Source: a virus
Taxonomy: Duplodnaviria; Heunggongvirae; Uroviricota; Caudoviricetes
IMG/VR virus record: IMGVR_UViG_2703718778_000007
Span: 1-38,962 of that record
Reading direction: 5' to 3' (one strand)
Length of the DNA stretch: 38,962 bases
Under the pieces are notes generated by a model, which did not search any database, had not been told where the DNA came from, and saw nothing but the letters and a program-made list of their open reading frames with translations. The position numbers and the translations under genes are program-made. Position 1 is the stretch's first letter, and each line of letters begins with the position of its first letter. Of the stretch, positions 6,611-9,615 are shown one piece after another.

Positions 6611-7081
6611 CTAATAAAATACCCAATTTTCTGTTTCTTGGTTGTGTCCAAAGTTATATTCAATATCTGGTGTTGATGTATCAATATTCTTCATCCCATC
6701 AACAAGAGTTGATACAACAGCCAAATCTTGTTTGATTCTCATTAAATGGTACTTCTTCCGGCGCAATAAACTTTCAATGGCAAGTTTCTTCGTTGGGAAT
6801 GCAAAAGATCTTTCTGCATTTTTTGCTACTTTCTTAATTGCATATCTATTTCTCCTTTGTTTCCATTCCTGTAACCACTGATTTGGTGCTGGTTTAAAAT
6901 TAACAATCCAATGCGCAGGAACCAACCATGCATAATGCTCTGTCTGATGAAAAGCTATATATTGAAGTGCGAATATTTTTATCCCATCTTCTTCAACTGT
7001 CGCCTGGAATCTCCAGAAAACAGGCATTCCATCATGTTCAGTTTCTGATTCAGGAAAAGGTACGCTCCATGATTTTGTCAT
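6611..7081 (-). CDS. Hypothetical AT-rich moron protein (156 aa) directly downstream of N
   Basis: Intact ORF; segment 6600-7090 is clearly more AT-rich than flanking phage DNA; followed by a 9-bp-stem hairpin at 6570-6597. Confidence 0.55.
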   Translation of the reverse strand: MTKSWSVPFPESETEHDGMPVFWRFQATVEEDGIKIFALQYIAFHQTEHYAWLVPAHWIVNFKPAPNQWLQEWKQRRNRYAIKKVAKNAERSFAFPTKKLAIESLLRRKKYHLMRIKQDLAVVSTLVDGMKNIDTSTPDIEYNFGHNQETENWVFY

Positions 7082-7089
7082 ATCTCACC

Positions 7090-7389
7090 TCAAATAAGTG
7101 GTTTGCTGCCTAATTTCATTTTCTGGCGACCAACACAAGTCACACCCATTTCACTGCGTGGCTTGCGGTAGTAAATACGGTTCTGTTTACGCTCGACTTC
7201 TTCTGCCTTCTTGCAGCGAAGGCTTCCGAGTGATGCTGCTTTATCTGCTCTGACGCAACCAGAGAGCTTTAGCGCAATTTTTCGTGCCAATCGCTGTTCT
7301 TGCATTGCCTGTTCACGTTGAGCCTGTCTGCGTGCTCTGCGGCGATTTCTGGCGTTATCGTCAGCCAGATATGTAATGACTACTGTCAT
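7090..7389 (-). CDS. N: Antitermination protein N (lambda-type)
   Basis: Arg-rich motif NARNRRRARRQAQREQ near N-terminus; C-terminus RIYYRKPRSEMGVTCVGRQKMKLGSKPLI aligns with lambda N C-terminus; RBS GAGGT. Confidence 0.75.
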   Translation of the reverse strand: MTVVITYLADDNARNRRRARRQAQREQAMQEQRLARKIALKLSGCVRADKAASLGSLRCKKAEEVERKQNRIYYRKPRSEMGVTCVGRQKMKLGSKPLI

Positions 7390-7445
7390 GTTGACCTCAG
7401 ATGAAACAACTTTGGAATTGATAGTGATTGCAAAGTGGTTTCTGG

Positions 7446-7464
7446 CCCCTCGAACTGAGGGGCA
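7446..7464 (-). promoter_or_regulatory. Stable hairpin in the N leader (possible RNase III/translation control element)
   Basis: GCCCCTC-AGTTC-GAGGGGC, 7-bp GC stem about 55 nt upstream of the N start. Confidence 0.3.
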
Positions 7465-7949
7465 GAAAGAGCATCTCGCCACCTAATAGGTCGATGCTCG
7501 GATCGAGAGATTTAATTAACCTCGGTTTTGAAGTTATGCATTCACATAAATCCTCCTGTTGCATGTGCAGCATTGGCTGTGTTTGGCGGCTGCATTTCGC
7601 CTATGGAATTGACTTTGGCGGTGACGCGCCGGGTGCTTATCTTCCGGTTGCCGTCGTGCAGCTGCACTTCACGTCACCCCAAAGCCAACTACTCTTTGAC
7701 TCACACTCTCGCAGTGAGCGCGCCCATGCCATTGAGTCTCTGCCGCTTCATCGCCGCTGATAACCGGTGCGCGTCTGGCATTCGCGCTGCTTTACCGGAG
7801 CTACTTTTAATATATTGACCTTAACCCGATGCTAAGCAGGCTCGCTCAATGACGACTCAGGGCAGTATCATTACTGCTGCATTGCCTTTCGGCTGCGGTC
7901 TAACCGCGTTAGTGCACCATTACGGCACCTCCTGTTTGGTTAAACTCAG

Positions 7950-7991
7950 TTCCCGCATTTCGGCGGGACAATCCCATCAATGTTAAAGAGC
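7950..7991 (-). promoter_or_regulatory. nutL (boxA GGCTCTTTAACA + boxB hairpin)
   Basis: Minus strand carries the same boxB TCCCGCCGAAATGCGGGAA found at nutR, preceded by a boxA-like element. Confidence 0.6.
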
Positions 7992-8039
7992 CTGCCAATC
8001 TGTTCCGTTTGGCTACCAGCGTCCTGCTGATGGCTAAAG

Positions 8040-8079
8040 AATACTGTAGGTATTTTATTGTGTAAATACCCAAGGTATT
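8040..8079. promoter_or_regulatory. oL operators and pL promoter
   Basis: Two 15-bp palindromes AATACTGTAGGTATT (8040-8054) and AATACCCAAGGTATT (8065-8079), 25 bp apart, matching the oR sites; leftward TTTACA-17-TATTCT overlaps them. Confidence 0.5.
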
Positions 8080-8211
8080 TATTTTTGATGAAATAATGAT
8101 AAGCAAATGAATACAAAGGATATTTATTTTTTTCGGTGTCTGCTTGTTCAGTGCTTTTTATGCGGGATATGTGAAGTGGATCCCGATAGCTATTGCTGCC
8201 GGGATTATAGG

Positions 8212-8580
8212 TTAGTCAGCGAAGGTTAAGACGAGAATTACCTTAATGATGTCTGCTACAACAGACACGGCCATAGATAAACCAAAGACGATCCAAGCCA
8301 CAGTGATGTCTTCACTACCATCGTATAGAGTTCCGTAATCACTGGTGTAAGGCGTAAATGTCGCGCCTTGATACAATAGGTATAAGCTTGATCCATAGAG
8401 GATAAATGCAGATATCCCTTGTATTGCTATGATCACAAGAATCATGAAACGAGCTGATCTATGCGCCCAAGCCTGGCTTATTTTTTCTGATAGAGATTTC
8501 GCAATAAAAGCATGCGCTAAGCCGTAAATTGTCGAGATTGCCAACATCCCAAAAAAGCTTGCTATAGCGGTTCCAACCAT
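8212..8580 (-). CDS. Small integral membrane protein (about 122 aa, 3 predicted TM helices) co-transcribed with cI
   Basis: First ATG at 8580, 17 nt after the cI stop with RBS AAGGGG; TTG at 8601 overlaps the cI stop; three long hydrophobic stretches. Confidence 0.6.
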   Translation of the reverse strand: MVGTAIASFFGMLAISTIYGLAHAFIAKSLSEKISQAWAHRSARFMILVIIAIQGISAFILYGSSLYLLYQGATFTPYTSDYGTLYDGSEDITVAWIVFGLSMAVSVVADIIKVILVLTFAD

Positions 8581-8597
8581 AATCGCCCCTTGCGTGA

Positions 8598-9314
8598 TCA
8601 AACCAGCCTTAGTTTTGTCTCAATTGCAACGCCTATAATCTTGCAGTTTCCATTGATTGGCACGAGAGGCCATGCAGGATTAAGTCCCTTGAGGTATTTA
8701 TTTCCGCCGTCGATTATCAGCTTCTTGAATGTTGCTTCGTTAGAGTCAGAAAGTTTTGCTATGACCAAGCTGCCGTTGATCGCCTCCCTTCCGGTATCGA
8801 AAAGAACGAATGTTCCCTCTGGAATGCTTAACCCAACCGGTGCCGTCATTGAATCACCTTCCACTTTAAGCCAGAACGCATTACCTTGAATATGCGCGTC
8901 AGACTCAAGCCAAACATCTATGTCTTTAATGGTGTATGGTTCGCATGCTTCACACCACGAGCCAGCCTGGATACTGCTTAACACCGGATACCTCTTTCCT
9001 GCTCTGTATTCCCCTGCATACCTTACGTTGGCATCGCTCTTAAGGCTTTCTGCCTGTTCTGCAACCTTGGCAGCAATTGACTGGCTAAAATCAGCAATTG
9101 AGACTTGCAACAAACGTGCAAAACCAGATGCGACCTCAACGTTTAGCGCGTTTCTGCCATTAAGATAATGCCCTACCGCTCCTTGGGTGATACCCAGTTC
9201 ATCAGCGATTGAGTATTGGGTTATTCCCAATTCTTTCTTTTTTGACTCATACAAAGCCTTAAGCCGCTTAGCGTCTTCGAGCTGTTCTGTCGTCAGTGAT
9301 TTTTTATTTTCCAT
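8598..9314 (-). CDS. cI: CI-type prophage repressor (HTH + S24 LexA-like autopeptidase domain)
   Basis: N-terminus LTTEQLEDAKRLKALYESKKKELGITQ aligns with lambda CI; candidate Ala-Gly cleavage site (RYAGEY) and GDSM...K motifs. Confidence 0.85.
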   Translation of the reverse strand: MENKKSLTTEQLEDAKRLKALYESKKKELGITQYSIADELGITQGAVGHYLNGRNALNVEVASGFARLLQVSIADFSQSIAAKVAEQAESLKSDANVRYAGEYRAGKRYPVLSSIQAGSWCEACEPYTIKDIDVWLESDAHIQGNAFWLKVEGDSMTAPVGLSIPEGTFVLFDTGREAINGSLVIAKLSDSNEATFKKLIIDGGNKYLKGLNPAWPLVPINGNCKIIGVAIETKLRLV

Positions 9315-9349
9315 AGCTTAATTCTAATAGCTAAGGTACTTAAACTAAA

Positions 9350-9391
9350 AATACCCTGAGTATTGATTGCTTTGAATACCTGTAGTATTCT
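9350..9391. promoter_or_regulatory. oR operators with pR promoter (pRM expected just upstream)
   Basis: AATACCCTGAGTATT (9350-9364) and AATACCTGTAGTATT (9375-9389); pR -35 TTGATT 9363-9368 and -10 TATTCT 9386-9391. Confidence 0.55.
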
Positions 9392-9420
9392 TTGTTCATG
9401 GTTAATAACGGAGAGTGCAT

Positions 9421-9615
9421 ATGATTCGAATGACACTTGCCGATTACGCCAAAATCCATGGACAGGCTAAAGCAGCCAGTGACTTTGGTGTAATCCAGTG
9501 CGCTATCAGCAAGGCCATTCTGGCAGGCCGTAACATTATGGTTACGGTAAAGCCTGATGGCAGTGTGATTGGAGAGGAAGTTCGTCCTTTCCCAAGCAAC
9601 AAGAAAAACAAATAG
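9421..9615 (+). CDS. cro: Cro repressor
   Basis: [32 protein letters not shown]... aligns with lambda Cro including C-terminal [11 protein letters not shown]; RBS GGAGAG. Confidence 0.8.

What the first reader, a model, noticed from the sequence alone, without database searches (positions are those of the whole stretch)
8212..8601. Membrane protein translationally coupled to the cI repressor (rexAB-equivalent slot)
A roughly 122-aa protein with three predicted TM helices begins 17 nt after the cI stop (an alternative TTG start overlaps the stop), on the same strand and without an intervening terminator, so it should be expressed from pRM in the lysogen. In lambda this slot holds rexA/rexB, and in other lambdoid phages it carries exclusion or abortive-infection cargo. 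The gene is AT-richer than cI and I do not recognise the protein as RexB, SieA or SieB, so it is a candidate uncharacterised superinfection-exclusion or defense factor.
Basis: partly seen in the sequence, partly recalled or inferred. Interest (0 to 1): 0.7.

Follow-up and report, generated by a model that had tools for sequence, protein, structure and literature searches.

The report
Orphan membrane gene behind phage repressor
A small, three-helix inner-membrane protein (the gene HK620 calls hkaS) always sits directly behind one type of prophage repressor gene, in the spot where phage lambda keeps its rexAB defence genes; it is a real, conserved gene with no detectable relatives and no known function, most likely a prophage-expressed factor that keeps other phages out.

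Summary
On the minus strand, a 122-aa ORF (8212-8580) starts 17 nt after the cI stop and has its own Shine-Dalgarno sequence. It has three hydrophobic helices and a positive-inside charge pattern. It is not new as a gene: it is hkaS of coliphage HK620, annotated "unknown", and PHROG 6534.

It is an orphan family. There are 12 clusters among 5.8 billion proteins. A profile search of 1.84 billion representatives finds only the family itself. Pfam, NCBIfam, PADLOC and PDB give nothing, and there is no similarity to RexB, SieA, SieB, HK97 gp15 or a class I holin.

In all 89 loci with upstream sequence it lies 17-20 nt downstream of a LexA-like cI. The intact ORF is found in all 90 related loci scanned. 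Its dS is about equal to that of cI, its dN/dS is 0.14, and its protein evolves about 4x faster than CI. It follows the cI C-terminal domain even when the DNA-binding domain is swapped, and it occurs in podoviruses, lambda-like and HK97-like siphoviruses, and Stx2c phages. About 2.7% of complete E. coli genomes carry it.

Function is inferred only. Most likely it is a prophage-expressed inner-membrane exclusion or defence factor, possibly blocking DNA entry. An abortive-infection channel, a switch modulator and a host-fitness role remain open. Interest is moderate.

The parts
8212..8580 (-). hkaS-type gene: 122-aa predicted inner-membrane protein with three transmembrane helices. Predicted topology is N-terminus out and C-terminus in, with a basic cytoplasmic loop (28-44) and an acidic periplasmic loop (72-92).
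   Evidence: ORF. Full-length match to PHROG 6534. 99-100% identical to hkaS of HK620, HK630 and mEpX2. Hydropathy and charge distribution. AlphaFold pLDDT 89. dN/dS 0.14.
8586..8591 (-). Shine-Dalgarno sequence AAGGGG, ending 5 nt upstream of the hkaS ATG, inside the 17-nt cI-hkaS spacer (8581-8597).
   Evidence: Sequence. An AAGGA/AAGGGG motif is kept in the divergent homologues' 17-20 nt spacers.
8598..9314 (-). cI repressor (HTH_3 plus Peptidase_S24), the first gene of the presumed pRM/pRE operon.
   Evidence: Pfam E = 5e-24 and 8e-10. 100% identical protein to HK620 cI.
8180..8205 (-). Stem-loop 7 nt after the hkaS stop (AUCCCGGCAGCAAUAGCUAUCGGGAU) with no U-tract. It is a candidate operon end.
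   Evidence: RNA fold. The consensus terminator scan did not call it. The Buttiauxella homologue has a canonical terminator at the same position.
8039..8125 (.). OL operator cluster: three AAATACCnnnGGTATTT-like palindromes at 8039-8055, 8064-8080 and 8109-8125.
   Evidence: Pattern search gave 7 hits against 1.3 expected, all but one in OL or OR. The DNA is near-identical to the annotated HK620 region.
8031..8066 (-). pL early leftward promoter, which marks the downstream edge of the immunity operon.
   Evidence: Promoter scan: TTTACA, 17-nt spacer, TATTCT. The HK620 annotation transfers by alignment.
9325..9390 (.). OR operator cluster (three palindromes) between cI and cro. This is the pRM/pR region that would drive cI-hkaS.
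   Evidence: Pattern search. HK620 annotation of OR1-3 and pR. Cro at 9415-9615 (Pfam Cro, E = 4e-26).

Best explanation
hkaS is the second and last gene of the prophage repressor operon (cI-hkaS). It would be transcribed from pRM in the lysogen and from pRE during establishment, and it encodes a small three-helix inner-membrane protein. The most likely role is a prophage-expressed superinfection-exclusion or defence factor acting at the cytoplasmic membrane. The favoured mechanism is interference with genome entry across the inner membrane, by binding a host membrane component or the incoming phage's DNA-delivery conduit, in the manner of P22 SieA or HK97 gp15.

Shown: the gene is real and conserved. 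It is under purifying selection, predicted to be membrane-integral, invariably linked to cI, and unrelated to any known family.

Inferred: expression in the lysogen, any anti-phage activity, and the step that is blocked.
For: Position:
- Same strand as cI, 17 nt downstream, with its own Shine-Dalgarno sequence and no terminator or promoter between them.
- It is followed by a hairpin, then OL and pL.
- In the Buttiauxella homologue a canonical terminator follows the gene.
- All 89 loci with upstream sequence have an S24 cI ending 17-20 nt upstream, and no other gene is ever called between hkaS and N.

Slot logic:
- Lambda holds rexAB here and BTP1 holds the abortive-infection gene bstA. The cI-N interval is a recognised mosaic hotspot driven by the strongly transcribed repressor promoter (PMC8585504).
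- The nearest cI relatives carry a different secreted protein here or nothing.

Architecture:
- Three TM helices with a conserved positive-inside pattern. P22 SieA is likewise an inner-membrane protein with three predicted TM segments (PMC10883804).
- HK620 and this phage lack a sieA gene in the gene 16-gene 9 interval. All 22 sequenced sieA-carrying P22-like phages infect Salmonella.

Selection:
- dS matches cI (0.67 against 0.76) and dN/dS is 0.14, but dN is about 4x that of cI.
- The ORF is intact in 90 of 90 loci.
- It is present in 146 of 5426 complete E. coli genomes, always next to the repressor.
- The periplasmic loop is the least conserved region.
Against: - There is no experimental or transcriptomic evidence of any kind, and I found no paper on function.
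- There is no similarity to any known exclusion or defence protein, and structure searches return only generic helical bundles.
- Known injection blockers travel with the virion module they protect against (sieA next to the ejection-protein genes, gp15 next to the tape-measure gene). hkaS travels with cI across Lederbergvirus, Lambdavirus, Hendrixvirinae and Stx2c phages.
- The most conserved parts face the cytoplasm: the loop KISQAWAHRxARF and the C-terminal KxILVLTFAD. There is also an invariant intramembrane Gln54/Asp110/Lys113 set. These features fit a channel or a cytoplasmic partner as well as they fit an entry block.
- No canonical terminator is called after the gene in this window.
Confidence: 0.4

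Rival explanations
1. hkaS is an abortive-infection effector. It would form an oligomeric channel in the inner membrane that is silent in the lysogen and opens on superinfection, collapsing membrane potential or triggering premature lysis. This is RexB-like or holin-like in effect but without a RexA-type sensor.
For: - It occupies the same slot as rexAB.
- Each TM helix carries a stripe of small or polar residues. There is a G3xxx[A/G]7xxxG11 packing motif and invariant intramembrane Gln54, Ser106, Asp110 and Lys113, as expected for a pore or a tight oligomer.
- It travels with the immunity module rather than with a virion type, which suits a general post-entry defence.
Against: - No sensor gene is present. 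hkaS is always the only cargo gene.
- hhalign against RexB gives 0.6% probability and against the P22 holin 0.3%.
- It has three predicted helices, against the four reported for RexB (my own knowledge).
- The oligomeric state was not predicted or tested.
Confidence: 0.17
2. hkaS is an accessory of the lysis-lysogeny switch rather than a defence gene. It would be a membrane protein that, through its conserved cytoplasmic face, influences CI or CII stability or prophage induction, for example via FtsH or another membrane protease, or by contacting the CI C-terminal domain. This would parallel the reported roles of RexA and RexB in the transition to lytic growth.
For: - Linkage is to the cI C-terminal (S24/oligomerisation) domain. 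The Buttiauxella prophage has a different HTH domain and a different cro but the same C-terminal domain plus hkaS.
- The cytoplasmic loop and C-terminus are the best-conserved parts.
- Lambda RexA binds CI and RexB modulates this (bioRxiv 10.1101/2021.04.19.439022).
- Independence from virion type fits a switch function.
Against: - Linkage to the C-terminal domain is also what simple adjacency predicts, because the recombination breakpoint lies in the cI hinge.
- Close cI relatives do without hkaS, so it is not needed for repressor function.
- The protein evolves about 4x faster than CI, which is unusual for a tightly co-adapted partner.
Confidence: 0.12
3. hkaS is a lysogenic-conversion (host-fitness) moron unrelated to phages. 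It would be a small membrane protein that modulates a host transporter, envelope stress response or tolerance trait, benefiting the lysogen in the gut.
For: - It would be expressed with the repressor in the lysogen, which is where conversion genes belong.
- The neighbouring allelic cargo in HK446, Huey and Sf6 is a secreted protein of unknown role, so the slot is not exclusively used for defence.
- It is kept intact in 2.7% of complete E. coli genomes, including STEC, and in Salmonella, Hafnia and Buttiauxella prophages.
Against: - There is no similarity to any transporter, regulator or known small-protein modulator.
- The taxonomic range is narrow and strictly phage-borne.
- The characterised cargo of this slot (rexAB, bstA) is anti-phage.
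Confidence: 0.16
4. hkaS has no current function. It would be a hitchhiking ORF preserved by tight linkage to cI.
For: - It is an orphan with no relatives.
- Among near-identical alleles, 22 codons show amino-acid variation against 14 with only synonymous variation, which suggests weak constraint over short timescales.
Against: - dN/dS is 0.14 at dS 0.67.
- Length is exactly conserved at 122 aa, and the ORF is intact in 90 of 90 loci down to 52% identity.
- There are 36 invariant residues, including buried charges.
- The Shine-Dalgarno sequence and spacer are conserved.
Confidence: 0.05

Closest known systems
HkaS of coliphage HK620 (AAK28867; PHROG 6534; also annotated in HK630, mEpX2 and HK140)
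   Same: It is the same gene: 99-100% protein identity, the same 17-nt spacing after an identical cI, and the same OL/pL downstream.
   Different: Nothing material differs. These records give no function ('unknown' or 'hypothetical protein').
Lambda RexB (with RexA)
   Same: It occupies the same slot between cI and OL, on the cI strand. It is a small polytopic inner-membrane protein presumably expressed from pRM.
   Different: There is no sequence relationship (hhalign probability 0.6%). There is no RexA partner and no room for one. It has three predicted helices and 122 aa, against 144 aa for RexB and four reported helices (my own knowledge). No pLIT-like internal promoter was found.
P22 SieA
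   Same: It is a prophage-expressed inner-membrane protein with three predicted TM segments whose conserved motif faces the cytoplasm. SieA blocks DNA injection (PMC10883804).
   Different: hhalign probability is 0.3%. The SieA motif FxRYPxEAxxFNK is absent. SieA is 162-164 aa, has its own promoter, and lies between genes 16 and 9 of P22-like phages only. hkaS lies in the immunity region of several virion types.
HK97 gp15
   Same: It is a small prophage-expressed moron protein, predicted to be in the inner membrane, and it blocks DNA entry (cited in PMC10883804).
   Different: gp15 is 62 aa and sits in the tail-gene cluster next to the tape-measure gene. There is no similarity (hhalign probability 0.2%).
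BstA of Salmonella prophage BTP1
   Same: [quoted passage not shown]
   Different: BstA is a large protein that localises to sites of phage DNA replication, with a self-immunity DNA element. It is not a membrane protein, and hkaS gave no PADLOC hit of any kind.
Sf6 gp38-type protein (HK446 gp39, Huey CDS0038)
   Same: It is alternative cargo in the same slot behind the next-closest cI C-terminal domains (about 71% identity). It is also a single small gene, and it overlaps the cI stop.
   Different: It is a 134-aa protein with an N-terminal signal peptide and no TM bundle. It is unrelated in sequence.

Membership tests
HkaS / PHROG 6534 | Full-length sequence match to the family profile | tested here: met
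   E = 2.4e-79 over 1-122 of 122 profile positions. 99.2% identical to HK620 hkaS.
HkaS / PHROG 6534 | Position immediately downstream of a LexA-like cI, on the same strand | tested here: met
   17-nt spacer here. 17-20 nt in all 89 related loci with upstream sequence.
Lambda RexB | Sequence or profile similarity to RexB | tested here: not met
   hhalign probability 0.6%. No Pfam or PADLOC hit.
Lambda RexAB system | A RexA-type sensor gene between cI and the membrane component | tested here: not met
   Only 17 nt separate cI and hkaS. No other gene is called between cI and N in any homologous locus.
P22 SieA | Sequence similarity and the conserved cytoplasmic motif FxRYPxEAxxFNK (PMC10883804) | tested here: not met
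   hhalign probability 0.3%. The motif is absent from the 122-aa sequence.
P22 SieA | Location between the gene 16 and gene 9 homologues of a P22-like phage | tested here: not met
   hkaS lies in the immunity region. The gene 16-tailspike gap of the window (34049-34473) is too short for sieA.
P22 SieA | Blocks DNA injection of P22-like phages | not testable with these tools
   This needs plating, K+ efflux and DNA-entry assays.
P22/lambda SieB | Sequence similarity | tested here: not met
   hhalign probability 0.1%.
HK97 gp15 | Sequence similarity, and location next to the tape-measure gene | tested here: not met
   hhalign probability 0.2%. gp15 lies in the tail cluster.
Class I holin (P22 gp13 / lambda S type) | Sequence similarity and location in the lysis cassette | tested here: not met
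   hhalign probability 0.3%. The only holin hit is a sub-threshold NCBIfam match in one homologue (E = 0.08, 12.9 bits against a cutoff of 40.2).
Known anti-phage defence proteins (PADLOC-DB v2) | Match to any defence-system HMM | tested here: not met
   0 families at E <= 1.
Repressor-operon cargo ('rexAB slot' moron) | Lies between cI and OL/pL, co-oriented with cI, with no intervening promoter or terminator | tested here: met
Repressor-operon cargo ('rexAB slot' moron) | Transcribed in the lysogen from pRM | not testable with these tools
   This needs RNA-seq or a reporter fusion in a lysogen.

The most novel reading that the evidence does not exclude
HkaS is not a classical exclusion protein. 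It would be a membrane-anchored partner of the CI C-terminal domain or of the CII/FtsH axis, giving a membrane-state input into the lysis-lysogeny switch. This would explain why it is inherited with the cI C-terminal domain even when the DNA-binding domain and cro are replaced, why it is independent of virion type, and why its cytoplasmic face is its most conserved part.
Probability: 0.07. Interest if true: 0.75.

Novelty: new member of a known kind. Interest (0 to 1): 0.38.

Why it matters
The interval between the repressor and N in lambdoid prophages is a proven source of anti-phage systems (rexAB, bstA). hkaS is a compact, single-gene, family-less occupant of that slot.

It is carried by a well-studied model phage (HK620), by lambda-like and HK97-like phages that plate on K-12, by Stx2c-converting phages, and by about 1 in 37 complete E. 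coli genomes.

If it excludes phages, it would define a new small membrane exclusion family and add a tractable case to the still poorly understood question of how inner-membrane proteins stop phage DNA entry. If it does not, it is a clean case for asking what else prophages express alongside their repressor.

Either answer is cheap to obtain, because isogenic lysogens and phage panels already exist.

Tried and rejected
- **Family assignment.** Pfam gave only sub-threshold noise (Cation_ATPase_C at 17.6 bits against a cutoff of 27.3). NCBIfam, PADLOC and PDB sequence searches gave nothing.
- **Remote homology.** The word-indexed search of 5.8 billion proteins found 12 clusters. The exhaustive profile search of 1.84 billion representatives found 2 hits, the family's own representative and a 44-aa sequence matching profile positions 1-33. 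I found no more distant relatives.
- **Direct profile comparisons.** RexB, HK97 gp15, SieA, SieB and the P22 holin all gave under 1% probability.
- **RNA element.** Rfam on 7300-9500 gave nothing.
- **Extra operators.** I looked for CI operators inside hkaS that could support looping or a self-immunity element. None were found; operator-like sites occur only at OL and OR.
- **Literature.** Searches for hkaS, HK620, mEpX2 and downstream-of-cI membrane proteins found no functional study. The HK620 genome paper (J Mol Biol 2001) is not held.
- **TTG start.** The overlapping TTG start was rejected because it is not conserved.
- **tIMM.** The HK620 record's tIMM was not confirmed as a terminator by scan or fold, and it overlaps an operator-like palindrome.
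Full report
**1. What is there**

On the minus strand, the cI repressor gene (8598-9314; HTH_3 plus Peptidase_S24) ends with TGA at 8600-8598. The 17-nt spacer tcacgcAAGGGGcgatt follows, then an ATG at 8580 that opens a 122-codon ORF ending at 8212. A TTG at 8601 overlaps the cI stop and would give 129 aa.

The consensus scan finds no terminator between the genes and no promoter on that strand inside cI. GC is 42.0% for the ORF, 45.6% for cI and 47.3% for the window. The "AT-richer" remark is therefore true but weak.

Hydropathy gives three hydrophobic segments: about 2-27, 45-71 and 93-122. AlphaFold, run on an 8-sequence alignment, gives mean pLDDT 89. It predicts helices at 2-29, 31-38, 41-74 and 89-121, and a small hairpin at 78-86.

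Loop 28-44 carries 4 Lys/Arg against 1 acidic residue. Loop 72-92 carries 0 basic and 4 acidic residues. This pattern is kept in all divergent homologues. It predicts an N-terminus-out, C-terminus-in topology with loop 1 in the cytoplasm and loop 2 in the periplasm.

**2. It is a known, named, uncharacterised gene**

The protein matches PHROG 6534 ("unknown function") end to end, with E = 2e-79. By tblastn it is 99-100% identical to a gene in 16 phage records:
- HK620, where it is named hkaS with product "unknown"
- HK630 ("HkaS protein"), mEpX2 and HK140
- HZ41, HF4s, phi296, phi367 and 611R6
- two Stx2c-converting phages

The window is a mosaic HK620-like (Lederbergvirus) genome. From the hkaS stop through OL, pL and nutL it is nearly identical to HK620. 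The HK620 record places hkaS between cI and OL/pL.

An operator-like palindrome, AAATACCnnnGGTATTT, occurs three times at OL (8039-8055, 8064-8080, 8109-8125) and three times at OR (9325-9390). That is 7 hits against 1.3 expected. These sites bracket the cI-hkaS unit.

**3. The start codon and 'coupling'**

Homologues keep the ATG, a 17-20 nt spacer and an AAGGA/AAGGGG Shine-Dalgarno sequence. They do not keep the overlapping TTG. In the Salmonella locus an in-frame stop lies immediately upstream of the ATG, and the PHROG profile is also 122 positions long.

The protein is therefore 122 aa. "Translational coupling" amounts to tight spacing with an independent ribosome-binding site, not a demonstrated overlap.

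**4. Real gene under selection, co-inherited with cI**

The family is tiny. There are 12 clusters at 90% identity among 5.8 billion proteins, from E. coli, Salmonella, Hafnia and metagenomes. One of 185,579 species-representative genomes has it, a Buttiauxella. A profile search of 1.84 billion 50%-identity representatives returns only the family's own representative and a 44-aa sequence matching profile positions 1-33.

The members span 52-100% identity. All full-length members in the alignment are 122 aa except one 123-aa variant with an aberrant N-terminal third (P0007). There are 36 invariant positions.

For the window-against-Hafnia pair:

| Gene | dS | dN | dN/dS |
|---|---|---|---|
| hkaS | 0.67 | 0.093 | 0.14 |
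| cI | 0.76 | 0.022 | 0.03 |

For more distant pairs, synonymous sites are saturated in both genes. The two genes have therefore been inherited together for a long time. hkaS is under purifying selection, but its protein changes about four times faster than CI.

The ORF is intact in all 90 related loci scanned. All 89 with upstream sequence have an S24 repressor ending 17-20 nt upstream. No further gene is called between hkaS and N.

146 of 5426 complete E. coli genomes carry the cI-hkaS junction. All copies are chromosomal and all lie next to a "LexA family protein".

**5. What it is linked to**

Almost all copies sit behind the HK620-type cI. Across the alignment, CI is 86-100% identical to the window's, with the most divergent copies at 86-89% paired with HkaS proteins only 52-61% identical.

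The Buttiauxella prophage is informative. Its repressor has a different N-terminal HTH domain and a different cro, but the same C-terminal S24 domain followed by hkaS after 20 nt. The unit of inheritance is therefore cI C-terminal domain plus hkaS, not an immunity specificity. This is what adjacency predicts, though it also leaves room for a functional tie to the C-terminal domain.

The carriers belong to Lederbergvirus (HK620), Lambdavirus (HK630), Hendrixvirinae (mEpX2, HK140) and Stx2c phages. The gene follows the immunity module, not a virion type.

**6. The slot**

The cI-to-OL slot holds different things in different phages:
- Lambda has rexA and rexB.
- P22 has nothing, only 38 nt.
- CUS-3 has nothing.
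- The next-closest cI C-terminal domains (about 71% identity: HK446, Huey, Sf6-type) carry an unrelated 134-aa signal-peptide protein whose start overlaps the cI stop.

Owen et al. describe the cI-N interval as a mosaic hotspot. They note that bstA, like rexAB, lies downstream of the highly transcribed repressor and presumably shares its promoter (PMC8585504). Villafane et al. made the same inference for two epsilon34 genes (PMC2629481).

**7. End of the operon**

A stable hairpin (8205-8180) begins 7 nt after the stop codon but has no U-tract, and the terminator scan does not call it. In Buttiauxella a canonical terminator (stem plus TTTTATT) occupies the equivalent position.

The "tIMM" of the HK620 record maps to 8099-8129. 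There I see an operator-like palindrome rather than a terminator. How transcription ends in this window is not settled.

**8. What it is not**

- Pfam gave only sub-threshold noise, and NCBIfam, PADLOC and PDB sequence searches gave no hit.
- hhalign of the family profile against lambda RexB, HK97 gp15, P22 SieA, P22 SieB and the P22 holin gives probabilities of 0.1-0.6%.
- The SieA signature FxRYPxEAxxFNK (PMC10883804) is absent.
- Structure searches give only generic helical bundles.

Membership in every known family I considered fails. Only the HkaS/PHROG 6534 family is met.

**9. How it most likely works (inference)**

The position argues for expression in the lysogen together with the repressor. 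The architecture resembles P22 SieA: a small polytopic inner-membrane protein with short loops. SieA has three predicted TM segments, sits in the inner membrane and has a conserved cytoplasmic motif.

I therefore favour a prophage-expressed exclusion or defence factor acting at the inner membrane, most plausibly by blocking genome entry (confidence 0.4).

Three things count against this specific mechanism:
- The gene is independent of virion type.
- Its most conserved surfaces are cytoplasmic (KISQAWAHRxARF and the C-terminal KxILVLTFAD).
- It has invariant buried Gln54, Asp110 and Lys113, a Ser102/Ser106/Asp110 stripe, and a G3xxxA7xxxG11 motif.

These features fit an oligomeric channel (abortive-infection-like, 0.17) or a cytoplasmic partner equally well. 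The partner could be part of the switch (0.12) or a host protein affecting fitness (0.16). A functionless hitchhiker is unlikely given the selection data (0.05).

**10. Novelty and score**

The gene and its placement were recorded with the HK620 genome record (AF335538; genome paper J Mol Biol 2001, cited). Its function has not been addressed in anything I could search.

It is best described as a new (uncharacterised, family-less) member of a known kind, repressor-operon cargo. A specialist would not be surprised by its existence. The value lies in an easy, well-posed experiment on a compact orphan that is fairly common in E. coli prophages.

Interest is 0.38.

Noticed in passing
window 8099-8129 and 8109-8125: The HK620 GenBank record's 'tIMM' terminator maps here, but the sequence shows no terminator-like stem and T-run. 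Instead it contains a third operator-like palindrome (GAATACAAAGGATATTT). The record's OL3 (window 8086-8102) does not match the operator consensus. OL3 and tIMM may be mis-assigned in the reference annotation.
   Followed up: partly
L012 1833-2869 (Buttiauxella sp. contig CBCPKK010000004.1): This is a hybrid repressor. It has a different N-terminal HTH domain and a different cro, but the same S24 C-terminal domain as HK620 cI, followed by an hkaS homologue (56% identity) and a canonical terminator. It is a clear case of recombination at the cI hinge.
   Followed up: partly
L094 2190-2594 (phage Huey) and L095 2190-2594 (HK446); the Sf6 gp38 family: A 134-aa protein with an N-terminal signal peptide starts with an ATGA overlap on the cI stop. 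It occupies the same slot behind the next-closest cI C-terminal domains. One pipeline labels it 'PagP', which looks doubtful. Its function is unknown.
   Followed up: no
window 6611-7081 (-): This is a strongly AT-rich ORF (GC 36%, GC3 28%) of 156 aa, immediately downstream of the N-like gene. It matches PHROG 1636 (unknown function) over its full length. It looks like a separately acquired moron in the pL operon.
   Followed up: no
window 7483-8030 (-): The pL-to-N leader is unusually long, about 640 nt. It includes the nutL boxB hairpin (7952-7967) and a GC-rich stretch (54-55% GC at about 7600-7900). That stretch is about 90% conserved in mEp213 and Hafnia phage yong1, where nothing is annotated. 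CUS-3 labels its cI-N spacer 'bsq5 boundary sequence'. There is no Rfam hit.
   Followed up: partly
window 7090-7482 (-): The mechanical ORF for the N-like antiterminator starts at a GTG and is probably too long. The PHROG match begins at residue 22, and the arginine-rich motif (NRRRARRQAQ) follows the internal Met at about 7389. The likely N gene is about 99 aa.
   Followed up: no
hkaS alleles in L013-L092: Among 24 near-identical HkaS alleles, amino-acid polymorphisms are all conservative (A/S, I/V, F/L). They are most dense in TM1 (9 of 26 positions) and rare in both loops. This is the opposite of the pattern seen between distant homologues.
   Followed up: partly
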